Below are positions 1-43,834 of a DNA stretch of 64,000 bases, one piece after another. The stretch comes from a virus. The DNA is taken from the IMG/VR virus record IMGVR_UViG_3300020477_001932, positions 10,257 through 74,256 of that record. One strand, given 5' to 3'. The stretch's first letter is position 1; the number at the start of each line of letters is the position of its first letter. Position numbers and translations under genes: made by a program. The notes beneath the pieces were generated by a model. That model was not told the DNA's origin, did not search any database, and was given only the letters and a program-made list of their open reading frames with translations.

Positions 1-1
1 A

Positions 2-892
2 GAAGAAGATGGTGAAGGCGGAACAAAGAAAGCACCAGAAAACAAAACCAAACCTTCTAAAGCATCTGCAAAACAAGAAGCTAAGAAAGAAGATAAAGAA
101 GATGATGTAAAAGAAGAAGAGGAAGAAGCTGAAGAAGAAGAAGCTAAGAAAGAAGAAATCGAAGTTAATGTAGATGAAGATGTTGCTGCATTGATTAACG
201 GTGAAGAACTTTCTGAAGAATTTAAAACTAAAGCTGCTACAATCTTTGAAGCTGCTGTTAAATCTAAAATTGCAAAAATTCGCAAACAGATTAGAGAAGA
301 ATCTAAGAAAGAGCAAGACGAGCGTATTACATCTATGCAGGATGAAATGACTGAGAATATGGATAAATACCTCAACTATGCTGCTAAAGAGTGGATGGAA
401 GAAAACAAACTGGCAGTAGAACATGGTGTTCGTAACGAAGTTACAGATAGCCTTGTTGCTGGTTTGAAAAAACTATTGGAAGATCATTACATTGATGTTC
501 CAGAAGAAAAAGAAGATGTTTTTGAAAGTCTAGTAATTGAAAATAAAGAACTTGAAGAAAAACTAGACACACAAACCCAGAAGCACATGGATACCGTGAA
601 AGAATTAAATACATATAAGGCTGCTTCTATTTTCCAGACCGTTGCAGAAGGAATGGTCGATACTGATGTTGAAAAGTTTAAAGAATTGGTAGAGGACGTT
701 GATTACGACGCTGATGAACAATATGCAGAAAAATTGAATACTATCAAGAATAGCTATTTCAAATCAGATAAAAAAGATGAAGTTGTTGATAACAAGCAAA
801 CTGCTGGCACAAACAATCCAGTTGTAGATGGACAAGGTGATGGGCGTATGGATAGTGTATTAAAAGCAATTTCTAGTTTATCAAAAAAATAA
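2..892 (+). CDS. gp22: Prohead core scaffold protein gp22 (5' partial; frame open from window start)
   Basis: Acidic coiled-coil with LSEEFKTKAATIFEAAV and DKYLNYAAKEWMEENKLAVEHG motifs; directly upstream of the major capsid gene. Confidence 0.93.
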   Translation, partial: EEDGEGGTKKAPENKTKPSKASAKQEAKKEDKEDDVKEEEEEAEEEEAKKEEIEVNVDEDVAALINGEELSEEFKTKAATIFEAAVKSKIAKIRKQIREESKKEQDERITSMQDEMTENMDKYLNYAAKEWMEENKLAVEHGVRNEVTDSLVAGLKKLLEDHYIDVPEEKEDVFESLVIENKELEEKLDTQTQKHMDTVKELNTYKAASIFQTVAEGMVDTDVEKFKELVEDVDYDADEQYAEKLNTIKNSYFKSDKKDEVVDNKQTAGTNNPVVDGQGDGRMDSVLKAISSLSKK

Positions 893-948: not shown

Positions 949-2253
949 ATGTATATGGCAGAAGAACTTTCTGAGAAGTGGAAGCCCGTAATGGAGCATG
1001 AGGCACTTCCAGAAATAAAAGACTCTTATCGACGCGATGTTACATTGCGTTTGTTGGAAAATCAGGAGAAGTTTCTTAACGAAGCAGCTCCTACAAACTT
1101 CATGGGTGCTGCTGGTGCCGAAGGTGCTAACAAATCCGGTGGAATTGATATTTGGGATCCTATTTTGATGGGTCTAGTTCGACGCTCTATGCCTCAAATG
1201 ATCGCTTATGACATTTGTGGTGTTCAGCCTATGACTGGTCCTACGGGATTGATCTTTGCTATGAAAGCACGTTACACGAATCAAAGTGGTGGCGAAGCTT
1301 TCGGTGCAGCTGGAACCGGTGCAGACGAATCTCATACAGAGCATTCTGGTACTGGTACACATACAACAACGGATGATACCAACAATCCTTTCTCTGCTAA
1401 CGATACCTGGAAAACAGGCGGTGGTATGGCAACAGGTAATGCTGAAGCTCTCGGAGATGGTACTGGTCCTCATTTCGCAGAAATGGCTTTCACCATTGAG
1501 AAAACTTCCGTAACTGCAAAATCTCGAGCTCTGAAAGCTGAATACTCTACGGAGTTGGCTCAAGACTTGAAAGCAGTTCATGGTCTTGATGCTGAAACAG
1601 AATTGGCAAATATTTTGTCAACTGAAATTCTGCAAGAGATCAACCGTGAAGTTGTCCGCACAATTTATTATTGTGCAAAACCTGGTGCGCAGCGTGATAC
1701 AACAACAGCTGGTTCTTTTGATCTGGACACAGACTCTAACGGTCGTTGGTCAGTTGAGAAGTTCAAAGGTTTGATGTATCAAATCGAGCGTGATCGTAAC
1801 GAAATCGGACACGACACACGACGCGGCAAAGGTAACTTTATGATCTGTTCTGCTGACGTTGCATCCGCAATGGCTATGGCAGGTATGTTGGAAGCAGGTC
1901 ATGCACTTAACACAGACGATACAATGTCCACATTTGCTGGTACAATGAACGGAATGAAAGTTTACGTTGATCCTTACTACACATCTGATGTTGGTCAGTT
2001 CTACTTGGTTGGTTACAAAGGTGCATCTGCTTATGATGCAGGCCTTTTCTACTGTCCTTACGTTCCTCTACAAATGGTTCGTGCGATGGGTGAAAACACA
2101 TTCCAACCAAAAATCGGTTTCAAAACTCGTTACGGAATGGTGAAAAATCCTTTCGTAAACGGTGGTGGCGAAATTGATTTCACAACTGGTGGTACAACCG
2201 ATTTCGGTAAAAACCAATATTACAGAAAAGTTAGCATTGCCAACTTGATGTAA
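949..2253 (+). CDS. gp23: T4-like major capsid protein gp23
   Basis: GVQPMTGPTGLIFAM, KSRALKAEYSTELAQDLKAVHGLDAETEL, FYCPYVPLQ and FQPKIGFKTRYG motifs; probable maturation cleavage at FLNE/AAPTN; AAGGAG RBS. Confidence 0.99.
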   Translation: MYMAEELSEKWKPVMEHEALPEIKDSYRRDVTLRLLENQEKFLNEAAPTNFMGAAGAEGANKSGGIDIWDPILMGLVRRSMPQMIAYDICGVQPMTGPTGLIFAMKARYTNQSGGEAFGAAGTGADESHTEHSGTGTHTTTDDTNNPFSANDTWKTGGGMATGNAEALGDGTGPHFAEMAFTIEKTSVTAKSRALKAEYSTELAQDLKAVHGLDAETELANILSTEILQEINREVVRTIYYCAKPGAQRDTTTAGSFDLDTDSNGRWSVEKFKGLMYQIERDRNEIGHDTRRGKGNFMICSADVASAMAMAGMLEAGHALNTDDTMSTFAGTMNGMKVYVDPYYTSDVGQFYLVGYKGASAYDAGLFYCPYVPLQMVRAMGENTFQPKIGFKTRYGMVKNPFVNGGGEIDFTTGGTTDFGKNQYYRKVSIANLM

Positions 2254-26478: not shown

Positions 26479-27260
26479 TGGTAAACATGGTAACTAGTGG
26501 TAAACAAGAAGCTACTGGTAAATCTGTTTTATTATATTCTGGTGGCATGGATAGTTTGATGTTTGACTATTTAATGAAGCCTGATGTATTATTGTATATT
26601 CCGACTGGTAGTGAATACGAAATGATAGAAAGCAGTAAAATACGTTTACTTGGTAAATATGGTTATTTGGATGAAGATAAATTAGTTGTTTTACCTCGTG
26701 TTTTAAATTTAAGTAAGTTTGAACGTGATGATGCAATCGTTCCAAATCGTAACGCACATTTAATGTTGTTAGCTTCTATGTATGGTGAAGATTTGATTCT
26801 TGGAAGTGTTCAAGGTGATAGATCATTCGATAAGGATCCTATTTTTTATCAGAAAATGACAGACTTGTTAAATCATATGTGGAAAGAACAGCATTGGACT
26901 GAGGAACGTGTTTTTAAAGTTAGCTCTCCATATAAAGATAAAACAAAGACGGAGATTGTTAAAGAGTATCTGGAAAAGGGTGGTAGTGCAGACGCATTAC
27001 TACTTTCATGGAGTTGTTATGATCCACAATCAAGATATTTGTTAGACCCCGAAAGGGCTTGTGGATGGTGTAAACCATGTTTTCGTAAATGGATTTCACT
27101 TCATAATAACAATATAAGTATTCCAGAAGATTATTATGCAAACAATCCATGGGAAGCACCATGGCTTGAAAAGTTAATTCCTTCTGTACTTGAAAAGAAT
27201 TATCGAGGAAAAGAAGATTATGATTGGTGTGATGCCTTAACAAGTAAAGGAGTTTTATGA
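26478..27260 (+). CDS. queC: 7-cyano-7-deazaguanine synthase QueC-like
   Basis: SGGMDS PP-loop, PNRN, K.EIV, SWSCY and CGWCKPC Zn site. Confidence 0.85.
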   Translation: MVNMVTSGKQEATGKSVLLYSGGMDSLMFDYLMKPDVLLYIPTGSEYEMIESSKIRLLGKYGYLDEDKLVVLPRVLNLSKFERDDAIVPNRNAHLMLLASMYGEDLILGSVQGDRSFDKDPIFYQKMTDLLNHMWKEQHWTEERVFKVSSPYKDKTKTEIVKEYLEKGGSADALLLSWSCYDPQSRYLLDPERACGWCKPCFRKWISLHNNNISIPEDYYANNPWEAPWLEKLIPSVLEKNYRGKEDYDWCDALTSKGVL

Positions 27261-36349: not shown

Positions 36350-37771
36350 ATGCGAACTGAAACATTGATTTTAGAAAATCTTTTATATAATGACAATTAT
36401 TCAAGTATCGTTGGTATCTTCTTAAAACCAGAATATTTCAAAGAGAACGCTGAGAAGCAAATCTTTATAGAAATACAAAAACACATTTCGGAGTTTAATA
36501 AAGCTCCAACAAAAGAAGCACTATCAGTCAAACTGAATAACAGAGAAGATTTGAATGAAGCTGCATTTAATAAATGTAATGAAGTTCTTGAAACTCTAAA
36601 AGGTAAAACAGATGATGAAGAATGGTTGACAAAAGAAACAGAAAAGTGGGCAAAAGACCAAGCAGTATATAATGGTATCGTGCAAAGTATTTCTATCTTG
36701 GAAGGTAAAGATAAGAAAGCCTCCAAGGATGTCATTCCAGAAATTCTTACAGAAGCATTAGCCGTTTCATTAGATAAAAGTATCGGACATAATTATTTGG
36801 AAGATGGTGAAAATAGATGGGAATTTTATCATCAAAAAGAAACTAAAATTCCATTTAAAATGATTATGCTTGATAAAATTACTGGTGGTGGTATCTCGCC
36901 AAAAACTCTTACAGTCTTATTAGGTGGAACTGGTGTTGGTAAAACTCTAGTAAAAACTCATTTTGCATCACAATATTTAAGACAGGGAAAAAATGTTTTA
37001 TATATTACAATGGAAATGGCTGAAGAAAGAATAGCTGAAAGAGTTGATGCTAACTTAATGGATGTTGAGTTAAATGATTTACATAGAATGCCGAAAGATA
37101 TGTTTGAGAAAAATCTCAAAGAAATGAAAATCGGTAAGTTAGTTGTTAAAGAATATCCAACAGCTGGAGCCCATGTTGGTAATTTTCGTGCATTGATACG
37201 AGAATTGAAAATTAAAAAAGACTTCACACCAGATATTATCATTTTGGATTATTTAAATATTTGTGCATCTAGCAGAGTGAAGTGGGCTGCAAATATGAAT
37301 ACCTACATTTATATCAAATCTATTGCAGAGGAGGTTCGTGGTTTGGCAGTAGAATGTAATGTTCCAATTATTACAAGTTCACAATTAAATCGGGAAGGGT
37401 TTACAAGTTCGGATCCTGATTTATCTAATACGTCTGAAAGTTTTGGATTACCAGCAACAGCAGATTTAATGCTTGCAATTATAGCAAAAGATGATGGAGT
37501 TGGTACGAATAACCAGATTTTGTTTAAGCAGTTGAAGAATCGTTATAGTGATATTTCTTTGAATAGTAAATTCTTGGTTAATGTAGTTAAGAAGAAAATG
37601 ATGTTGGTGGATATAGAAGAAAATGACCAGCCTGCTCTAGCAAATGATGGTAGCAATAAATATTATGAAAAGAAGTCAGATGCAAATTCTAGTTCAAATC
37701 CATTGGCCAAAGAGTTCAAAATTAGACCAAAGTTGAGGACTGAAAAAGCCTATGATGATTGGAATATATAA
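36350..37771 (+). CDS. gp41: Replicative DnaB-like helicase gp41
   Basis: GGTGVGKT, ITMEMAEERI, KEYPTA, DYLNI, SESFGLPATAD and KQLKNRY motifs. Confidence 0.97.
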   Translation: MRTETLILENLLYNDNYSSIVGIFLKPEYFKENAEKQIFIEIQKHISEFNKAPTKEALSVKLNNREDLNEAAFNKCNEVLETLKGKTDDEEWLTKETEKWAKDQAVYNGIVQSISILEGKDKKASKDVIPEILTEALAVSLDKSIGHNYLEDGENRWEFYHQKETKIPFKMIMLDKITGGGISPKTLTVLLGGTGVGKTLVKTHFASQYLRQGKNVLYITMEMAEERIAERVDANLMDVELNDLHRMPKDMFEKNLKEMKIGKLVVKEYPTAGAHVGNFRALIRELKIKKDFTPDIIILDYLNICASSRVKWAANMNTYIYIKSIAEEVRGLAVECNVPIITSSQLNREGFTSSDPDLSNTSESFGLPATADLMLAIIAKDDGVGTNNQILFKQLKNRYSDISLNSKFLVNVVKKKMMLVDIEENDQPALANDGSNKYYEKKSDANSSSNPLAKEFKIRPKLRTEKAYDDWNI

Positions 37772-37774
37772 ATA
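37767..37774 (+). promoter_or_regulatory. Late promoter
   Basis: TATAAATA overlapping the gp41 stop, upstream of an AAGGAGG RBS. Confidence 0.7.
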
Positions 37775-37799: not shown

Positions 37800-38021
37800 A
37801 TGCAAGATTTAACTATTTCTGATGGCTGGTTTAATAAAAAAGAAGATGAAAAACCATTAATGAAGAAATTATGTGAACATCGAGCTGATACAACTACTTT
37901 GGATTATGATGTAGGTATAGAATATTGCAATTTTTGTGGTGCATTAGGCCACTATAACGTAGATATTGACAAGGTGGAGTGGAAATTGCCTGAGTTTTTA
38001 GTGAAGCAGAATTATAACTAG
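37800..38021 (+). CDS. Small Cys-containing hypothetical protein
   Basis: AAGGAGG RBS; CEH...CNFCG. Confidence 0.7.
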   Translation: MQDLTISDGWFNKKEDEKPLMKKLCEHRADTTTLDYDVGIEYCNFCGALGHYNVDIDKVEWKLPEFLVKQNYN

Positions 38022-38033
38022 GCTGAAAAGTAT

Positions 38034-38041
38034 TATAAATA
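38034..38041 (+). promoter_or_regulatory. Late promoter heading the internal-protein cluster
   Basis: Intergenic TATAAATA. Confidence 0.72.
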
Positions 38042-38051
38042 TAGAGTAAAT

Positions 38052-38237
38052 ATGAGTGATGATATTAAAAAAATGTTTTCCGATGCAGTAGAAAAAGCCG
38101 TAACGGAAAAAGAAGAAATTAGTGAAAATTCTATCTTACATAGAATTTTAGCTACTAATGTTGACCATTATAAGATATGTCCATTTCGGTCATTAAACGT
38201 GGATGATTGCCCACTATGTAAGATAAAAAACTTATGA
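38052..38237 (+). CDS. Small hypothetical protein
   Basis: H...CPF....CPLC possible Zn site. Confidence 0.6.
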   Translation: MSDDIKKMFSDAVEKAVTEKEEISENSILHRILATNVDHYKICPFRSLNVDDCPLCKIKNL

Positions 38238-39334
38238 AATCATTTAAGAATTTTTTAAAAGAAGCAGATACTTCTGGTGCATTTGAAATGGAGGCAGCTC
38301 TTGTTGCAGCTGCAAACAATGACAATAAAGCCAAGTTCAAAGACCCAACTGTTTCTGTTGCAAATGCTAAGAAAGTTTTAAAATCACAAAAGATAAAAGG
38401 AAAAGGAAAATTTCCTAGCAGTCGATATGAAGTAACAAAAGAATGGGCTTCCTATTTTGATGGTGGTAAAGTTCCAAGTGCTACTAAAACACCTAAGACT
38501 GATATTATAATTGGAAAAAATTATATTTCTTTAAAAACGGGTGATGCACAATTAATGAGTGGTCAACGGCCTGAAGCACAAGCAACTTTTTATGCAGCTA
38601 TGAAAAAAACTGATAATACGGCTTTGTTGAAAAAAGTAGAAAAACAATTAAAAGAATTAAAAACAGCTTTTCGTCTAACAAACAAAAAAGGAAAAGAAAT
38701 TCATGGTAACAAACGTGATTTGATAGGAACAGCAAAAGGACAAGTGTTAGAAGAAATAGATGTGTTTCATAGAAAATTTAAAAAAGATTTAAGAAAGGCA
38801 TTTGAATCAAATTCTAAATTTGCTCAAGAGTTTACTTTTGAAGCTATGACAGGAGCTCAAAAGTTTGGAAAGAATGAGGGGACTGCTACTTCTTTTCTTA
38901 TAACAAATAAAGAAGGAACAAAATCTGATTTTCATACTGTTATAAAATCATCTGATAAATATGTTAAGAAAATTGCAAGTCAAGTAAAGCCTGATGTTAG
39001 ATTTAAGTCAGGGTCTGTTAAAGGTTCTGCTGATAAAACAGGAAAGAAAATATATAATTTCTGGGCCACAGTTGGTTTGGGTGTTAAGATGGTTTTGGAT
39101 GAAGGTTTTGAACAGATTGAAAAAGAAATGCTAACAGAAGGAATACTTGATAAAGCTAGTGTGGTATGGGATAAGTTGAAAAGTAAAGTAACCAATTTAT
39201 TTGACAAATTTATTGATTGGATTATGGAAAATTTCCAAAAAGCAAAATCTTGGATTGGTGATAATTGGAAAAGATTGGTTGATTATATGGATTATGAACC
39301 CATGGTGTCATATACAAATAATATTAAGTGGTAG
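38234..39334 (+). CDS. Putative capsid-packaged PD-(D/E)XK-like nuclease
   Basis: N-terminal MKSFKNFLKE targeting-like peptide; E...PKTDII....ISLK core. Confidence 0.55.
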   Translation: MKSFKNFLKEADTSGAFEMEAALVAAANNDNKAKFKDPTVSVANAKKVLKSQKIKGKGKFPSSRYEVTKEWASYFDGGKVPSATKTPKTDIIIGKNYISLKTGDAQLMSGQRPEAQATFYAAMKKTDNTALLKKVEKQLKELKTAFRLTNKKGKEIHGNKRDLIGTAKGQVLEEIDVFHRKFKKDLRKAFESNSKFAQEFTFEAMTGAQKFGKNEGTATSFLITNKEGTKSDFHTVIKSSDKYVKKIASQVKPDVRFKSGSVKGSADKTGKKIYNFWATVGLGVKMVLDEGFEQIEKEMLTEGILDKASVVWDKLKSKVTNLFDKFIDWIMENFQKAKSWIGDNWKRLVDYMDYEPMVSYTNNIKW

Positions 39335-39337
39335 TTT

Positions 39338-40561
39338 ATGTTATCATTCAAAGAAGTATTAAATGAAGATAAAAATACGCACATGGAGCACCTTGAAGAT
39401 GAAATCATCAACAATGGTGTAAAAGGTGCGACAACAGTAATAAGGTTTTTAGATTCCTTGAAAGATATGTTATCTGGTGGAAAAAAGAAAACCAATATTA
39501 CTACGAAGTGGGATGGAGCTCCAGCAATTTTTGCTGGAATCAATCCAGAGAACGGAAAGTTTTTCGTCGCAATAAAAGCATTGTTTAATAAGTCCCCCAA
39601 AATAAATTATACGGTAGCTGACATTAAAGCTAATCATGGTTCAGGCGGGCCTTCAGATAAAATAAAACTTGCGTTGAAACATTTACCGGATCTCGGATTA
39701 GATGATGGAGTCTATCAAGGTGATATAATGTTTTCTAAAGGTGATTTGAAAAAACAAACAATAGATGGTGAGAGTTGTTTGACATTTACACCGAATACTA
39801 TCACCTATGCTGTTCCAGAAGATAGTGATTTGGCTTCTGATATGAGGAAGGCAAGTATTGGAGTGGTGTGGCACACAAAGTATTCAGGAAACAGTATTGC
39901 TGATTTGAAAGCATCTTATGGTGTTGATTCAAGTCAATTCAATAAAAGTAAAAAAGTTTGGTTTGATGATGCATATGTAGATACTGCAAATGCAGCTACG
40001 TTTTCTCCAAGTGAAATAAAAACACTTGAAGGCAAAATCAGACAGGTGGCTGGTGCAGCTTCCAAAGCAGGTAAATTTTTAAATCAACTTTCTAAAGATA
40101 AAACTAAGTGGGGATTAGCTCCACTTATGAAAATCTTTTTTAATTCAAAGATTCGTGAAGGAGATAAGATAGCAGACACAAAAAATCTTGTTAAAGAGTT
40201 TCAGCAATACTATGTCGCTCGAATGAAACAAGAGATCGACTCAAAGAAATCTGATAAAGGTAAACAGAAATATAAAGATATTCAAAAAGAATCAGAAAAG
40301 ACTTTAAAGAAATTCAAAGACGAATTATATTTTACAATGGCCACTTACTTGGGAATACTTGAAGCAAAAGAAATGGTCATTAGAAAACTGGAAACTATAA
40401 AAGGTATTGGTACGTTTTTAAAAACTAAAGATGGGTTTAAAGTAACAGCACCAGAAGGCTTTGTTGCTATTAATTCAAAAGGCGGTGCTGTTAAATTAGT
40501 TGATCGACTTACTTTTTCCCATGCTAATTTTACAATAGCTAAAGATTGGGTAAAGGGGTGA
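39338..40561 (+). CDS. Conserved marine T4-like protein (DUF6267-like) with ATP-dependent ligase motifs; putative internal protein
   Basis: MLSFKEVLNE N-terminus; TKWDGAP (I), YQGDIMF (III), EGFVAI (IV), VKLVDR (V). Confidence 0.7.
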   Translation: MLSFKEVLNEDKNTHMEHLEDEIINNGVKGATTVIRFLDSLKDMLSGGKKKTNITTKWDGAPAIFAGINPENGKFFVAIKALFNKSPKINYTVADIKANHGSGGPSDKIKLALKHLPDLGLDDGVYQGDIMFSKGDLKKQTIDGESCLTFTPNTITYAVPEDSDLASDMRKASIGVVWHTKYSGNSIADLKASYGVDSSQFNKSKKVWFDDAYVDTANAATFSPSEIKTLEGKIRQVAGAASKAGKFLNQLSKDKTKWGLAPLMKIFFNSKIREGDKIADTKNLVKEFQQYYVARMKQEIDSKKSDKGKQKYKDIQKESEKTLKKFKDELYFTMATYLGILEAKEMVIRKLETIKGIGTFLKTKDGFKVTAPEGFVAINSKGGAVKLVDRLTFSHANFTIAKDWVKG

Positions 40562-40565
40562 TACT

Positions 40566-40736
40566 ATGCTAGAAGATTTAAAAGAACTCAGAAGAATATT
40601 AGATAGATTTATAGCTAAGTATGAAAAAGAAGCTATATATTGTGTAGGGCAATTAGAAGTAGATAGAGAAGAAGAAAAAGAACCAGATAACAATTTAACA
40701 AAGGAAGGATTTTGGAGAGGGAATGACATCTATTAG
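40566..40736 (+). CDS. Small hypothetical protein (56 aa; not in ORF track)
   Basis: GGGGTG RBS; MLEDLKELRRILDRFIAKY... Confidence 0.55.
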   Translation: MLEDLKELRRILDRFIAKYEKEAIYCVGQLEVDREEEKEPDNNLTKEGFWRGNDIY

Positions 40737-40914
40737 ATCGAGGTATTGTGCAAAGTGTGATGCAGTATTGAAGTGGAATTGTAAGTGTCCAAATAACAGA
40801 GCCATGGCATGGCATAGAAAAAACGTATTTCATTCTGGTAAACGGTATAAGGGGAAAAAGGCTTGGAAAAAAGTTTATCCAGATGAAGTTGAATATAAAG
40901 GGGATTCAAAATGA
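40723..40914 (+). CDS. Small Cys-rich basic protein
   Basis: CAKC...CKC; GGAGAGG RBS. Confidence 0.55.
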   Translation: MTSIRSRYCAKCDAVLKWNCKCPNNRAMAWHRKNVFHSGKRYKGKKAWKKVYPDEVEYKGDSK

Positions 40915-41210
40915 AATCATTTAGAAAATTTGTTAAAGAGGGAACTAAGGAAGAATACAACAAACTTTTTGATGCAAAACTAAAAAAGTATGGTGTTGAT
41001 AGTCCTGAAGATTTGTCTGATGAAGAAAAGAAAAAGTTTTTTGATGAAATTGATAAAGAATGGAAGTCTGATAAAGAGGAAGTTAAAGAGTTTATTAAGA
41101 AAGATGGTGCAAGGCGTCGTGTTGCTGGTGGCGACGGTCGAAAGAGTAAAAAGTCTAAAGAAGAAGGTTGTGCTGACCATGAGGATGAGGAAGAAGAGGA
41201 AGAAGAATGA
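40911..41210 (+). CDS. Putative internal head protein
   Basis: MKSFRKFVKE N-terminal targeting-like peptide; highly charged. Confidence 0.65.
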   Translation: MKSFRKFVKEGTKEEYNKLFDAKLKKYGVDSPEDLSDEEKKKFFDEIDKEWKSDKEEVKEFIKKDGARRRVAGGDGRKSKKSKEEGCADHEDEEEEEEE

Positions 41211-41530
41211 AAGGCTTTGGAACATTCATAAAAGAAAATTGGAAAGATGAAGCTACTGAGTTAAAGCTATTCATTGATAATGATGCAAATCTTTATCGTC
41301 AAAGACTTGTTCCTATTGTCAAAAATATCCAGAAGAAAATGAAGTCTGGAAAGTATGACCATAAGAAAGCTCCTAAACTTTGGAAGTATCTTGTAGATGA
41401 TGGTGCAAAGAAATATGCTAAAGAATTTCCAGGTGTTAAGTTTGATAGGAAAGTTAAAGATCATGTTGCACAAGAATTTGCAGATGAATACAGAGTTGAA
41501 ATAGAAGCCCAAGGCGGAAAGATGTTCTAA
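41207..41530 (+). CDS. Putative internal head protein
   Basis: MKGFGTFIKE N-terminal targeting-like peptide. Confidence 0.65.
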   Translation: MKGFGTFIKENWKDEATELKLFIDNDANLYRQRLVPIVKNIQKKMKSGKYDHKKAPKLWKYLVDDGAKKYAKEFPGVKFDRKVKDHVAQEFADEYRVEIEAQGGKMF

Positions 41531-42117
41531 TGAAAAGTTATAGGAAATTCATAAACGAAGCAAAAGGTGATACAGCTGTTTTCTCTTTTGGTAGAATGAA
41601 TCCTCCTACCATTGGACACGGGAAACTTATCGCTAAAGTTATTTCAGTTGCAAAGAAAGAAAGAGCAACACCTATTATTTTTCCTTCAAAGACCGAAGAT
41701 AAAAAGAAAAATCCTTTGTCATTTAAAACAAAAGTGAAAGTAATGAAGGATGTTTTTGGTAATGTTATAAATACTGATACATCAATAAAGACACCCTTTG
41801 ACGTATTAGACAAGCTAAATAATGATAAGTATGAAAAAGTTGTTTTTGTAGTTGGCAGTGATCGGGTAAGCGAATTCAAACGAAATATGAGTAAATATGT
41901 TGATAGCGACCTTGATAATATAAAAGATTTTTCAGTTGTCTCAGCAGGAGATCGTGATCCAGACGCTGAGGGTGTTGCTGGTATGTCTGGTTCAAAAATG
42001 AGAGACTTTGTTATTAAAGATAAGTTTAGCAAGTTCAAGGAAGGGCTTATGACGAAGAATGCTAGACTTGCAAAAGCCGTTTTCAAAGAGATCGGCAAAA
42101 AATTAAAAATCAAATAG
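41530..42117 (+). CDS. Cytidylyltransferase-like (HxGH) nucleotidyltransferase; putative internal protein
   Basis: MKSYRKFINE; FGRMNPPTIGH.KL, NPL, VVGSDR, SAGDRDPD and MSGSKMR motifs. Confidence 0.85.
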   Translation: MKSYRKFINEAKGDTAVFSFGRMNPPTIGHGKLIAKVISVAKKERATPIIFPSKTEDKKKNPLSFKTKVKVMKDVFGNVINTDTSIKTPFDVLDKLNNDKYEKVVFVVGSDRVSEFKRNMSKYVDSDLDNIKDFSVVSAGDRDPDAEGVAGMSGSKMRDFVIKDKFSKFKEGLMTKNARLAKAVFKEIGKKLKIK

Positions 42118-42131
42118 GAGGAGAACCTATA

Positions 42132-42203
42132 ATGCATCCAAGATTTATGCAAGCTTTAATATTTTTGGCAGGTTGGGCAGTAGCAGGTTATTTGTATCAT
42201 TAA
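42132..42203 (+). CDS. 23-aa hydrophobic peptide
   Basis: AGGAGG RBS; MHPRFMQALIFLAGWAVAGYLYH. Confidence 0.4.
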   Translation: MHPRFMQALIFLAGWAVAGYLYH

Positions 42204-42229
42204 ATATTATTAGAAAGGAGTAAAATAGT

Positions 42230-42421
42230 ATGGAAACTATGATTTTAGCATGGGCACAGGGACAATCTTGGTTTGGTATTGCTTGCACAGTTATTGCAGT
42301 TGCAAACGCAGTTACTCTTACCTTAAAAGATGATTATGCAGAAAAATTGCCTGTTCTTGGAAAAATATGGCCGATTCTGAATTGGTTGTCTTTGAATGTT
42401 CATAATAATAAAAATGGTTAA
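42230..42421 (+). CDS. Small membrane protein (holin-like)
   Basis: AAAGGAG RBS; TM helix; ILNWLSLNV..NKN C-terminus. Confidence 0.55.
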   Translation: METMILAWAQGQSWFGIACTVIAVANAVTLTLKDDYAEKLPVLGKIWPILNWLSLNVHNNKNG

Positions 42422-42427
42422 TAATTG

Positions 42428-42460
42428 ATATATGGGGGAAGCTTCCCCCATATATTTTTT
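42428..42460 (+). terminator. Perfect 28-bp palindrome / terminator
   Basis: ATATATGGGGGAAG|CTTCCCCCATATAT followed by a T-run. Confidence 0.8.
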
Positions 42461-42780: not shown

Positions 42781-42990
42781 ATGAGTACATGGGGATCAGA
42801 TGGTGCTGAAGGAAGTAAACCAAAAAATTTAACAGATGCAGAAAAAGCTAAGTGTACTGCTGATAAAACTGGCTGGACAGTTCCTGCTGGTGGTAATGAT
42901 AATCCAGCTGCAGATCGTGAAACATTGGTTGCTGTTAGAGGAATGAAAGAAGCACCAGCACCAGCTCCGGCTGAGGAAGAAGAAGAATAG
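42781..42990 (+). CDS. Small hypothetical protein, possibly virion-associated
   Basis: MSTWG...KPK...GW...ETLVA pattern recalled from T4-like late genes. Confidence 0.6.
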   Translation: MSTWGSDGAEGSKPKNLTDAEKAKCTADKTGWTVPAGGNDNPAADRETLVAVRGMKEAPAPAPAEEEEE

Positions 42991-43468: not shown

Positions 43469-43834
43469 ATGCGATTTGATGTTTTGACGAATGGTAATTA
43501 TATGATGTATGCACTACTTCATTATGATAACCCACATTGTAAAGATATAAAAGAGTTCTTTGAGGATATTAAACGAATACATTATATTCGTAGATTGTTT
43601 AAAAGATACGAAACAGATGGTATTCTTAAAGACCGATTAATACTTAATCATCTAATTACATTCTATAATGTTTTTGAAGCTAAAGCAGCTTCAAGAATAC
43701 TATTCTTTAGAATAGAAGAAAAATATCATTCTGCGTTGAAAACTTTTTTAGTTTTTATTAACAAAGCGCCAGAAGAAAGAAATGATATATCATTAGATGA
43801 TGTTGTAATTAATGTTCTAAGGAATATAAAATAA
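43469..43834 (+). CDS. Conserved T4-like hypothetical protein
   Basis: YDNPHC..EF.EDIKR..YIRRL and RLILNHLI..YNVF motifs. Confidence 0.8.
   Translation: MRFDVLTNGNYMMYALLHYDNPHCKDIKEFFEDIKRIHYIRRLFKRYETDGILKDRLILNHLITFYNVFEAKAASRILFFRIEEKYHSALKTFLVFINKAPEERNDISLDDVVINVLRNIK

What the first reader, a model, noticed from the sequence alone, without database searches (positions are those of the whole stretch)
38034..42117. Late cluster of five proteins with capsid-targeting-like N-termini: candidate injected enzyme kit
Seen: after TATAAATA promoters, ORFs begin MKSFKNFLKE (38234), MLSFKEVLNE (39338), MKSFRKFVKE (40911), MKGFGTFIKE (41207) and MKSYRKFINE (41530), each with Glu at position 10. 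Established: T4 internal proteins carry a ~10-aa capsid-targeting sequence (MKTYQEFIAE type) removed by gp21 after Glu, and are injected with the DNA; IPI inhibits GmrSD. Inference: this phage packages a nuclease-like protein, a ligase-fold enzyme, an HxGH nucleotidyltransferase and two small proteins to act before phage gene expression, for example against host defences.
Basis: partly seen in the sequence, partly recalled or inferred. Interest (0 to 1): 0.8.

Follow-up and report, generated by a model that had tools for sequence, protein, structure and literature searches.

The report
Head-loading tag on five phage enzymes
An uncultured marine T4-like phage puts the ten-residue tag that phage T4 uses to load proteins into its head onto five unrelated proteins, including a restriction-enzyme-like nuclease, an RNA-ligase-like enzyme and an NMNAT-like enzyme, so they are probably packed into the capsid and delivered into the next host with the DNA.

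Summary
Five adjacent genes (38234-42117, + strand) start M[KL][SG][FY]xx[FV][ILV]xE. No other real gene in the 74-kb contig does (0.11 expected, P about 1e-7).

The conserved positions 4, 7, 8 and 10 are the ones mapped as targeting and cleavage determinants of the T4 capsid targeting sequence (CTS). The leader ends like this phage's own predicted capsid-protein cut site (KFLNE|A; T4 has SFLTE|A). A gp21 protease homologue is on the contig.

Beyond residue 10 the five proteins are unrelated:
- p1 has an MspI/HinP1I-like nuclease fold.
- p2 (DUF6267) has an RNA-ligase-like fold with an invariant KWDG.
- p5 is an HxGH nucleotidyltransferase.
- p3 and p4 are small proteins of unknown function.

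In 80 related viral loci the same leader heads 23 protein families. In cyanophage S-CREM2, four of the five annotated genes with the leader are published virion proteins.

Packaging, cleavage and injection were not measured for this phage, and what the enzymes do in the host is unknown.

This scan has noted the same kind of locus before on other DNA (88 notes, at least 86 genomes). I found no paper in the held library that links the CTS to marine T4-like phages. Verdict: a real new member of the T4 internal-protein system.

The parts
1..892 (+). 3' part of the gp22-like scaffolding core gene (starts 145 nt before the window); the presumed docking partner of the leader
   Evidence: 345-aa acidic ORF between the gp21 and gp23 homologues. 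Its role is inferred from T4.
949..2253 (+). gp23 major capsid protein; predicted maturation site KFLNE|AAPT at residues 41-48 (nt 1069-1092)
   Evidence: E = 1.3e-77 to T4 gp23. T4 is cut at SFLTE65|A66, shown by the 456-residue mature chains against the 521-residue precursor.
37767..37774 (+). TATAAATA late-promoter-like box, 33 nt before ORF 37800
37800..38021 (+). 73-aa Cys-rich ORF without leader, conserved in 23 related loci
38034..38041 (+). TATAAATA late-promoter-like box at the head of the cluster
38052..38237 (+). 61-aa Cys-containing ORF without leader, conserved in 22 loci; the variable cargo slot follows it
38234..39334 (+). p1, 366 aa: leader MKSFKNFLKE (nt 38234-38263), an MspI/HinP1I/HhaI-like PD-(D/E)XK nuclease fold and a C-terminal helical tail; mature pI 9.7
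   Evidence: AF2 model pLDDT 79, residues 1-11 below 50. MspI Z 9.7, HinP1I Z 9.5, HhaI 6.5, next hit 4.2. Invariant E20, D90, S99, K101. 436 homologues, whose leaders nearly all end [LIV]xE just before the conserved domain.
39338..40561 (+). p2, 407 aa: leader MLSFKEVLNE plus DUF6267, an RNA-ligase-like covalent nucleotidyltransferase fold; mature pI 9.4
   Evidence: Pfam DUF6267 E = 2.7e-119, beginning at residue 13. Invariant H15, H18, E20, K57, D59, G60, Q127-G-D129, E373-G374, K386. AF2 pLDDT 83, residues 1-14 below 50. RNA ligases 5cot Z 8.6, 1xdn 8.0, Trl1 7.9, T4 Rnl2 7.7, T4 Rnl1 7.2.
40566..40736 (+). 56-aa ORF without leader, conserved in 18 loci
40723..40914 (+). 63-aa basic Cys-rich ORF without leader, conserved in 22 loci
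40911..41210 (+). p3, 99 aa: leader MKSFRKFVKE plus a charged protein with a poly-Glu tail; mature pI 4.8
   Evidence: phrog_28651 E = 6e-8, function unknown. Family of 16 leader-bearing members in related loci. pI.
41207..41530 (+). p4, 107 aa: leader MKGFGTFIKE plus a basic protein of unknown function; mature pI 9.4
   Evidence: No Pfam, PHROG or NCBIfam hit. Atlas neighbours are viral hypotheticals only. Found in 16 related loci.
41530..42117 (+). p5, 195 aa: leader MKSYRKFINE plus an HxGH-type (TIGH) nucleotidyltransferase, NMNAT/PPAT-like; mature pI 9.8
   Evidence: Pfam CTP_transf_like 28.2 bits against a cut-off of 21. phrog_3041 cytidyltransferase E = 6e-53. Weak NadD-type NCBIfam hits. 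119 of 120 near homologues carry the leader.
42230..42421 (+). 63-aa hydrophobic ORF without leader, the last gene of the unit
42427..42456 (+). intrinsic terminator-like hairpin (13 pairs) followed by a T run; the likely end of the late transcription unit

Best explanation
The cluster is the internal-protein (head cargo) locus of a marine T4-like myovirus.

Proposed mechanism:
1. A late transcript runs from the TATAAATA boxes at 37767 and 38034 to the terminator at 42427-42456.
2. Five of its products carry a ten-residue N-terminal capsid targeting sequence, consensus M-[KLI]-[STN]-[FY]-[KR]-x-[FYL]-[LIM]-x-E.
3. Residues 4 and 7 dock the protein onto the scaffolding core (gp22, gp67, gp68) while the prohead assembles.
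4. The gp21 prohead protease then cuts after Glu10. This is the same F-[LIV]-x-E|small site at which it is predicted to mature gp23.
5. The mature proteins, four of them basic, stay in the head with the DNA and leave with it at the next infection, so they can act before any phage gene is expressed.

The cargo is an MspI/HinP1I-like endonuclease-fold protein, an RNA-ligase-like nucleotidyltransferase (DUF6267), an NMNAT/PPAT-like HxGH nucleotidyltransferase and two small proteins.

Shown here: the motif, its exclusivity, its position-by-position match to the T4 CTS, the protease and the capsid-protein site, the folds, the spread of the leader over unrelated families, and virion detection of leader-bearing proteins in other phages. 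Inferred: docking, cleavage, retention and ejection in this phage, and every activity in the host.
For: - The motif occurs only in these five genes of the contig (P about 1e-7).
- The T4 CTS is MKTYQEFIAE, cut once by gp21, and it suffices to package foreign proteins (PMC8442874). T4 mutagenesis places targeting at residues 4 and 7 and processing at 8 and 10 (PMC9026906). These are the most conserved leader positions here. Positions the regex did not constrain (2, 3, 5, 11) are also biased, towards K/L/I, S/T/N, K/R and A/G/D. Close relatives of p5 read MKTYRKFINE, 7 of 10 identical to T4.
- A gp21 homologue is present (E = 4.5e-22 to 5JBL; the GHP and SRG stretches are kept). The gp23 site KFLNE|A compares with T4 SFLTE65|A66.
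- The leaders are disordered in the AF2 models, and Pfam DUF6267 starts at residue 13.
- In the p1 family the leaders vary from 10 to about 35 residues, but nearly all end [LIV]xE just before the conserved domain.
- In 80 IMG/VR loci, 122 gene-strand ORFs start with the leader against about 10 on the other strand, and they fall into 23 unrelated families. The slot after the 61-aa ORF holds different cargo in different relatives, always with a leader.
- Published virion proteomes: in S-CREM2, four of the five annotated genes with the leader (SAM hydrolase gp6, gp13, kinase gp14, cytidylyltransferase gp154) were detected in virions, against 48 of the other 214 genes (Fisher P = 0.012). The S-SZBM1 cytidylyltransferase (MRFRQFIIE) and the S-CRM01 kinase (MISFDQFLSE) are also virion proteins. 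NMNAT-like proteins recur in cyanophage virion proteomes (PMC9602691).
- Four of the five mature proteins are basic, pI 9.4-9.8.
Against: - There are no proteomic, N-terminal or expression-timing data for this phage.
- The proteome papers themselves warn that abundant late proteins may co-purify with virions in CsCl gradients.
- The late-promoter call rests on an 8-mer that is not enriched genome-wide.
- Cyanophage DUF6267 orthologues lack the leader, so packaging is not needed for that enzyme's function.
- A co-packaged active endonuclease needs an explanation for not cutting the phage's own DNA. The 7-deazaguanine idea does not generalise.
- The fold matches are of middling strength (Z 8-10).
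Confidence: 0.75

Rival explanations
1. The proteins are packed and processed as proposed, but they work inside the head (DNA condensation, charge balance, packaging or ejection mechanics). They are not enzymes that act in the next host.
For: Four of the five mature proteins are basic, as the T4 internal proteins are described in PMC8442874. p3 and p4 have no recognisable catalytic fold. Nothing here shows activity in the host.
Against: Residues that look catalytic are invariant across 40-45% identical homologues: KWDG, EG and K386 in p2, E20/D90/K101 in p1, and TIGH in p5. Leader-bearing cargo elsewhere includes a SAM hydrolase and kinases, which make sense only in a cell.
Confidence: 0.12
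2. The leader is only a gp21-removable propeptide, or a late-stage regulatory tag, for enzymes that act in the producing cell late in infection. The proteins are not kept in the capsid or injected.
For: The cut-site part of the motif ([LIV]xE) is its most conserved feature. Virion detection in other phages could reflect co-purification (caveat in PMC10665884).
Against: T4 gp21 is active inside proheads, so a substrate must be in the core to be cut (PMC9026906). Positions 4 and 7, which govern targeting and not cleavage in T4, are just as conserved. Detection recurs in four independent proteome studies.
Confidence: 0.08
3. The shared N-terminus is not a peptide signal. It reflects a nucleotide-level element (a translation-initiation enhancer in AT-rich mRNA, or a recombination linker for gene shuffling) or recent duplication.
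For: The 30-nt leaders are 16-24 of 30 identical and AT-rich. As I recall it (Repoila et al. 1994, which I did not read here), the T-even CTS-coding stretches have also been proposed as recombination linkers.
Against: Ser3 uses TCA or AGT, and the pattern is kept at the amino-acid level in homologues only 40% identical and in distant phages such as Stenotrophomonas DLP6 (MMKFTQFLAE). None of the other roughly 97 genes has it although all are AT-rich. Leader length varies while the [LIV]xE end is kept. A linker role would add to the CTS role, not replace it.
Confidence: 0.04

Closest known systems
[quoted passage not shown]
   Same: A ten-residue N-terminal tag of the same pattern (T4 MKTYQEFIAE; here MKSYRKFINE and others), with hydrophobic or aromatic residues at 4 and 7, I/L/V at 8 and Glu at 10. 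A gp21-type protease and a gp22 scaffold are encoded in the same genome. Unrelated cargo shares only the tag. The locus is variable, the cargo is mostly basic, and the promoter context is late.
   Different: The mature parts show no similarity to IPI-III. Three of the cargo proteins are 20-44 kDa proteins with enzyme folds, whereas the T4 internal proteins are described as basic and non-enzymatic, and IPI* is a GmrSD inhibitor. The host phage belongs to a distant marine lineage near Kyanoviridae (about 42% identity to HTVC008M and cyanophage orthologues). Nothing has been shown experimentally.
T4 Alt, the packaged ADP-ribosyltransferase processed by gp21
   Same: An enzyme carried in the head, trimmed by gp21 and delivered with the DNA to act at once (PMC9026906).
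   Different: Alt has its own propeptides at both ends, not the ten-residue CTS. There is no sequence or fold relation to the proteins here.
Virion-associated 'cytidylyltransferase/NMNAT-like' proteins and kinases of T4-like cyanophages (S-CREM2, S-SZBM1, S-SCSM1, S-CBWM1, S-CRM01)
   Same: p5 belongs to the same protein family (phrog_3041/395). These proteins were found by mass spectrometry in purified virions, and the ones I checked start with the same leader.
   Different: Those papers report presence in virions but name no targeting signal or processing. Their cyanophage DUF6267 orthologues start directly at the domain (MAKNTHLEH...) and are not on the virion lists.
phiKZ/SPN3US inner-body and ejection proteins processed by the prohead protease
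   Same: Many head-internal proteins are cut after Glu by a gp21-related protease and ejected into the cell (PMC5694885 and PMC7411985, known to me only from their titles and abstracts). Three p1 homologues touch Pfam phiKZ_IP over 43 residues.
   Different: The Pfam match is short, borderline (27 bits) and absent in the window's own p1. As I recall it, the phiKZ cut motif is S/A/G-x-E and there is no ten-residue CTS. No inner body is implied here.

Membership tests
T4-type capsid targeting sequence / internal head proteins | About ten-residue N-terminal propeptide directly at the initiator Met | tested here: met
   All five start with the motif at residue 1 and have no alternative upstream start. 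The leaders are disordered and lie outside the conserved domains.
T4-type capsid targeting sequence / internal head proteins | Targeting determinants at residues 4 and 7, processing determinants at residues 8 and 10 (Glu) | tested here: met
   In the five proteins: F/Y at 4, F/V at 7, L/I/V at 8, E at 10. The T4 mapping is quoted from PMC9026906. The profile of 88 distinct leaders is.
T4-type capsid targeting sequence / internal head proteins | Cognate gp21-type prohead protease and scaffolding core in the same genome, with a matching cut site in the major capsid protein | tested here: met
   gp21 homologue E = 4.5e-22. gp22-, gp67- and gp68-like ORFs. gp23 KFLNE|A against T4 SFLTE65|A66. The cut site is predicted, not measured.
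T4-type capsid targeting sequence / internal head proteins | The same tag on otherwise unrelated proteins in a variable locus | tested here: met
   No similarity beyond residue 10. 23 cargo families in 80 loci. Cargo is swapped in the slot after the 61-aa ORF.
T4-type capsid targeting sequence / internal head proteins | Late expression | tested here: inconclusive
   TATAAATA at 37767 and 38034, placed like the boxes before the tail-tube gene and the gene after gp23. The 8-mer is not enriched overall. RNA-library contigs cover parts of the cluster but cannot show timing.
T4-type capsid targeting sequence / internal head proteins | Physical presence in virions and an N-terminus at residue 11 | not testable with these tools
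   Indirect only: leader-bearing proteins of S-CREM2, S-SZBM1 and S-CRM01 are on published virion lists. No peptide lists are held.
ATP-dependent RNA/DNA ligase (covalent nucleotidyltransferase) superfamily, for p2 | Motif I KxDG with the nucleotidylated lysine | tested here: met
   K57-W-D59-G60 is invariant in 32 sequences down to 42% identity.
ATP-dependent RNA/DNA ligase (covalent nucleotidyltransferase) superfamily, for p2 | Nucleotidyltransferase-domain fold, with motifs III, IV and V in order | tested here: inconclusive
   The top 11 VIA-align hits are RNA or DNA ligases (Z 8.6-6.6, 171-199 residues aligned), but Z near 8 is within the range the tool calls middling. Foldseek found nothing significant. 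Candidate motifs QGD (127-129), EG (373-374) and K386 are invariant, but I assigned them by eye.
MspI/HinP1I/HhaI-type PD-(D/E)XK restriction endonucleases, for p1 | Shared fold over most of the enzyme | tested here: met
   MspI Z 9.7 (196 of 262 residues), HinP1I Z 9.5 (197 of 247), HhaI 6.5, next unrelated hit 4.2. Foldseek probability 0.99 and 0.96.
MspI/HinP1I/HhaI-type PD-(D/E)XK restriction endonucleases, for p1 | Catalytic D...(D/E/Q/N)xK constellation | tested here: inconclusive
   Invariant D90, S99-x-K101 and E20 could form it, with Ser in the middle position.
HxGH nucleotidyltransferases (Pfam CTP_transf_like PF01467), for p5 | Pfam match above the gathering score, plus the (H/T)xGH motif | tested here: met
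   28.2 bits against a cut-off of 21, residues 20-125. TIGH lies in ...NPPTIGHGKL.... The subfamily (NMNAT, PPAT or other) is unresolved: NadD-type NCBIfam hits are far below their cut-offs.
phiKZ-like internal head proteins (Pfam PF12699), for p1 | Pfam match above the gathering score | tested here: not met
   The window's p1 has no hit. Three homologues match 43 residues at 27 bits or less.

The most novel reading that the evidence does not exclude
The tagged proteins form a ready-made nucleic-acid toolkit that is injected with the genome and works before any phage gene is expressed. The MspI-like endonuclease would attack host or competitor DNA. The RNA-ligase-like DUF6267 enzyme would reseal RNAs cut by host anticodon or other RNA nucleases; in relatives it sits with a leader-tagged P-loop (Pnk/zeta-like) kinase. 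The NMNAT/PPAT-like enzyme would resupply an adenylylated cofactor under NAD-depleting defence. The variable slot would then be an arms-race cassette, as IPI is against GmrSD in T4.
Probability: 0.25. Interest if true: 0.8.

Novelty: new member of a known kind. Interest (0 to 1): 0.6.

Why it matters
T4-like myoviruses of cyanobacteria, SAR11 and other marine bacteria are among the most abundant viruses in the sea. Their conserved 'cytidyltransferase' and T4-GC71/DUF6267 genes have had no explanation. Several virion proteomes have reported enzymes in the particle without saying how they get there. A simple N-terminal rule, the T4 CTS, would give:
- a mechanism for that loading;
- a sequence-only way to list the injected proteins of uncultured phages;
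- a short list of candidate pre-made counter-defence enzymes to test (nuclease, RNA-ligase-like, NMNAT-like, kinase, SAM hydrolase).

It would also show that the T4 head-loading signal has been kept between enterobacterial and marine T4-like phages.

Tried and rejected
- Self-protection by 7-deazaguanine DNA. I asked whether the phage's preQ0 island protects its DNA from the packaged MspI-like nuclease. QueC is present in this contig, but HTVC008M and Melnitz have p1 homologues (E = 1.8e-88 and 1.5e-56) and no QueC. The link is not general, so I dropped it as an explanation.
- phiKZ internal head protein membership for p1: only a 43-residue borderline match in three homologues.
- Sequence searches of p1, p2 and p5 against PDB chains gave nothing below E = 0.3. 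Foldseek on the p2 model gave no significant hit, so the ligase call rests on VIA-align and motifs.
- TATAAATA as a statistically enriched motif: it is not. Only its placement is informative.
- Peptide-level evidence for cleavage: the S-CREM2 supplement holds no peptide list. Dreher et al. 2011 (PMC4185292) is not held.
I used the search for related loci on IMG/VR instead.
- One distant DNA search failed because the query was one base over the limit, and I did not repeat it.
- Metatranscriptome contigs cover parts of p1/p2, p2, p4 and p5, some with no differences. DNA carry-over cannot be excluded and timing cannot be read.
- Protein Atlas for p4 returned only unnamed viral clusters.
p3, p4 and p5 were not folded.
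- Literature searches for CTS or internal proteins together with cyanophage returned only the Black review. 'DUF6267' returned nothing.

Full report
CONTEXT. The window is bases 10257-74256 of a single 74,256-bp viral contig. IMG/VR classes it as a provirus, with a CheckV completeness estimate of 41%. The contig carries T4-type genes almost all on one strand: portal, gp67- and gp68-like, gp21, gp22, gp23, gp41, gp43 and others. Its nearest cultured relatives at the locus studied are Pelagibacter phage HTVC008M, T4-like cyanophages, Methylophilales phage Melnitz and Stenotrophomonas phage DLP6. DUF6267 is only about 39-45% identical to theirs, so this is an uncultured lineage of marine T4-like myoviruses. 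Near-identical DNA occurs in marine metagenomes of several studies.

OBSERVATION. Five ORFs at 38234, 39338, 40911, 41207 and 41530 begin MKSFKNFLKE, MLSFKEVLNE, MKSFRKFVKE, MKGFGTFIKE and MKSYRKFINE. The starts are unambiguous: 1-10 codons without Met lie between the upstream stop and the ATG. A strict regex finds only these five among about 102 ORFs. A loose regex, anchored only at positions 4, 7, 8 and 10, finds these five plus two ORFs that are not genes. From the contig's amino-acid composition, 0.11 loose matches are expected (P(>=5) = 1.2e-7).

The five proteins share nothing significant beyond residue 10. Ser3 is TCA in three genes and AGT in one, so selection acts on the peptide. Two boxes (37767, 38034) precede the whole cluster, and a strong terminator-like hairpin follows it at 42427-42456. 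The 8-mer is not enriched overall, but half of the + strand copies sit in the 5% of non-coding DNA, including sites before the tail-tube gene and the gene after gp23.

IS IT A CAPSID TARGETING SEQUENCE? The T4 CTS is given as MKTYQEFIAE. It is cut once by the prohead protease and suffices to load foreign proteins (PMC8442874; PMC3012670). The review of Black's work reports that in IPIII targeting depends mainly on residues 4 and 7 and processing on residues 8 and 10. Asp10 blocks cleavage but not targeting (PMC9026906).

Those four positions are the conserved ones here. In 88 distinct leader-and-family combinations from related loci, positions not constrained by my regex are also biased: K/L/I at 2, S/T/N at 3, K/R at 5, A/G/D at 11. 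Close relatives of p5 read MKTYRKFINE, 7 of 10 identical to T4.

The contig encodes a gp21 homologue (E = 4.5e-22 to T4 gp21, 5JBL) that keeps the GHP and SRG stretches. From my own knowledge of T4, these hold the catalytic His and Ser. T4 gp23 is cut at SFLTE65|A66. I read this from the alignment numbering and from the 456-residue mature chains against the 521-residue precursor. This phage's gp23 has KFLNE45|A46 at the equivalent place. So the leaders end in the same F-[LIV]-x-E|small-residue site that the protease is predicted to use on its main substrate.

THE LEADER IS AN ADD-ON.
- Pfam DUF6267 starts at residue 13 of p2.
- Both AlphaFold models have pLDDT below 50 for residues 1-11 or 1-14, followed by confident domains.
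- Among 120 close relatives of p2 the leader is kept (M[LKQ]x[FY]xxx[LI]NE). In 119 of 120 relatives of p5 it is kept, while the linker after Glu10 varies from 7 to 17 residues.
- In the p1 family (436 homologues) the conserved domain starts at (A/G)DT(S/T)AA(F/Y)(E/D)ME. The preceding leaders vary from 10 to about 35 residues, yet nearly all end [LIV]xE immediately before it.
- Cyanophage DUF6267 orthologues (P-HM2, S-PM2, S-SZBM1, S-CRM01) start directly at the domain. HTVC008M (a shorter MYNDLLVE), Melnitz, C48C1 and DLP6 (MMKFTQFLAE) have a leader.

A VARIABLE CARGO LOCUS. I fetched 80 IMG/VR loci around DUF6267. On the gene strand 122 ORFs start with the leader, against about 10 on the opposite strand. 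After the leader is removed they fall into 23 unrelated families. Besides the five families of this window, these include:
- a P-loop kinase (AAA_33/zeta-toxin-like, 8 members);
- a RimK-type ATP-grasp enzyme;
- a DUF5824 protein;
- several orphans.

The gene order is conserved: gp41, 73-aa ORF, 61-aa ORF, cargo slot, DUF6267, two small ORFs, p3, p4, p5, small membrane ORF. The slot after the 61-aa ORF, however, holds different proteins in different relatives, each with a CTS-like start such as MKTFKNFVTLSE, MKPFRKFILSE or MKSFKTFLVE. Conserved tag with swappable cargo is what the review in PMC9026906 describes for T-even internal proteins.

EXTERNAL EXPERIMENTAL SUPPORT. For cyanophage S-CREM2, 52 proteins were published as detected in CsCl-purified virions (PMC10665884, Table 3). 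I fetched the whole genome and scanned it with the loose regex. Five annotated genes start with the motif. Four of them are on the virion list:
- SAM hydrolase gp6, MKDFDSFLEE;
- gp13, MKDLHSFLTE;
- kinase gp14, VKRFDAFLTE;
- cytidylyltransferase gp154, MKNFSSFLTE.

The fifth is a 55-residue protein. Four of five against 48 of the other 214 genes gives Fisher P = 0.012. Neighbouring genes that were not detected lack the motif.

The S-SZBM1 cytidylyltransferase, also detected in virions (PMC9146016), starts MRFRQFIIE. The adjacent leaderless DUF6267 is not on that list. S-CRM01 encodes a serine/threonine kinase (g130, starting MISFDQFLSE) in the homologous cluster, next to g131 (MNFSEFLE) and g129 (MKKLDQFLTE). 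PMC10665884 states that a putative protein kinase was detected in S-CRM01 virions, and I take g130 to be that kinase. NMNAT-like proteins are reported as recurrent in cyanophage virion proteomes (PMC9602691). None of these papers names a targeting signal, and they caution that abundant late proteins might co-purify.

WHAT THE CARGO IS.
- p1: the model (pLDDT 79) matches the monomeric restriction enzymes MspI (Z 9.7, 196 residues), HinP1I (Z 9.5) and HhaI (6.5), well above the next hit at 4.2. Invariant E20, D90 and S99-x-K101 are candidates for a PD-(D/E)XK-type site. Residues 304-355 form a helical tail.
- p2 (DUF6267): the model (pLDDT 83) is closest to RNA ligases: Naegleria nick-sealing ligase Z 8.6, REL1 8.0, Trl1 7.9, T4 Rnl2 7.7, T4 Rnl1 7.2, then DNA ligases. 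K57-W-D-G60, Q127-G-D129, E373-G374 and K386 are invariant, as is an N-terminal H15/H18/E20 cluster. The scores are middling and Foldseek alone found nothing. I file it as 'ligase-superfamily-like, subfamily unknown'.
- p5: passes Pfam CTP_transf_like and has TIGH. Its subfamily is unresolved. PHROG 455 shows that DUF6267 and this domain also occur fused.
- p3 (acidic, poly-Glu tail) and p4 (basic) have no known relatives with a function.
- The mature p1, p2, p4 and p5 are basic, pI 9.4-9.8.

MECHANISM, AND WHAT IS INFERRED. Shown: the tag, its specificity, its fit to the T4 determinants, the protease and the matching capsid site, the modular distribution, the folds, and virion detection of tagged proteins in other phages. 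Inferred: docking on the scaffold, cleavage after Glu10, retention and ejection in this phage (confidence about 0.75 for packaging plus processing, lower for ejection). All host-side functions are speculative.

An appealing reading is healing and sealing of RNA cut by host nucleases, as T4 Pnkp and Rnl1 do against PrrC (my own knowledge). It fits the ligase fold and the leader-tagged P-loop kinase in relatives, but no kinase lies in this window's cluster.

I tested one idea for how a packaged nuclease could spare the phage genome, namely 7-deazaguanine DNA. It does not generalise, because HTVC008M and Melnitz have p1 homologues but no QueC.

PRIOR KNOWLEDGE AND NOVELTY. The CTS system is textbook for T4, and the Black review already suggests that T4-like phages use CTSs to load varied proteins. 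In the held library no paper links a CTS to cyanophages or other marine T4-like phages, and none mentions DUF6267. Subscription journals are largely missing, so I cannot exclude an earlier description.

Within this scan the same kind of locus has been noted many times on other DNA (88 notes in at least 86 genomes). Those notes agree with my reading but are not independent evidence.

I class the finding as a new member of a known kind. It is a real feature, and it matters mainly because it explains virion-borne enzymes in abundant ocean phages and gives a sequence rule for finding injected proteins.

Noticed in passing
L068:558-1208 and seven other loci; HTVC008M gp129 at L001:6742-7404: A 217-230-aa P-loop kinase (Pfam AAA_33 / Zeta_toxin) carries the same leader in related loci. 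HTVC008M gp129 starts MIPFILKE followed by GGPGSGKT. With the RNA-ligase-like DUF6267 this would make a healing-and-sealing pair. No such kinase lies in this window's cluster.
   Followed up: partly
L069:4071-5492; L072:8392-9081: A RimK-type ATP-grasp enzyme (474 aa) and a DUF5824 protein also start with the CTS-like leader in related viral contigs.
   Followed up: partly
window 37800-38021, 38052-38237, 40566-40736, 40723-40914: Four small ORFs without leader are interleaved with the tagged genes and conserved in 18-23 related loci. Three of them are Cys-rich or Cys-containing (possible zinc ribbons). Their function is unknown.
   Followed up: partly
L011:4705-7314 (S-CREM2 gp12, minus strand): The virion-detected 'Cas9-like' 869-aa protein of S-CREM2 has RFASFMAE|A at residues 18-25 of the annotated product. 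This suggests either a mis-called start or a longer propeptide ending in the same cut site.
   Followed up: no
protein P0278 (85% identical to p5): One source names this close homologue as coming from a Nitrospinaceae MAG.
   Followed up: no
window 26703-27089 (G000:C1:36959-37345): A QueC-family match (40 bits, above the cut-off) confirms that at least this gene of the reported 7-deazaguanine island is present.
   Followed up: partly
window 39168-42243: Metatranscriptome-library contigs from several studies cover parts of p1/p2, p2, p4 and p5, some identical to the window. One contig bridges the p1-p2 junction (39236-39383). DNA carry-over cannot be excluded.
   Followed up: partly
window 42781-42990 and 43469-43834: Synteny with cyanophages continues downstream. 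The 69-aa ORF starts like the N-terminus of the cyanophage 'head protein' T4-GC537, and the 121-aa ORF starts like T4-GC198, judged by eye from the first residues. So the cargo cluster sits next to a head gene, as it does in S-PM2, P-HM2 and S-SZBM1.
   Followed up: no
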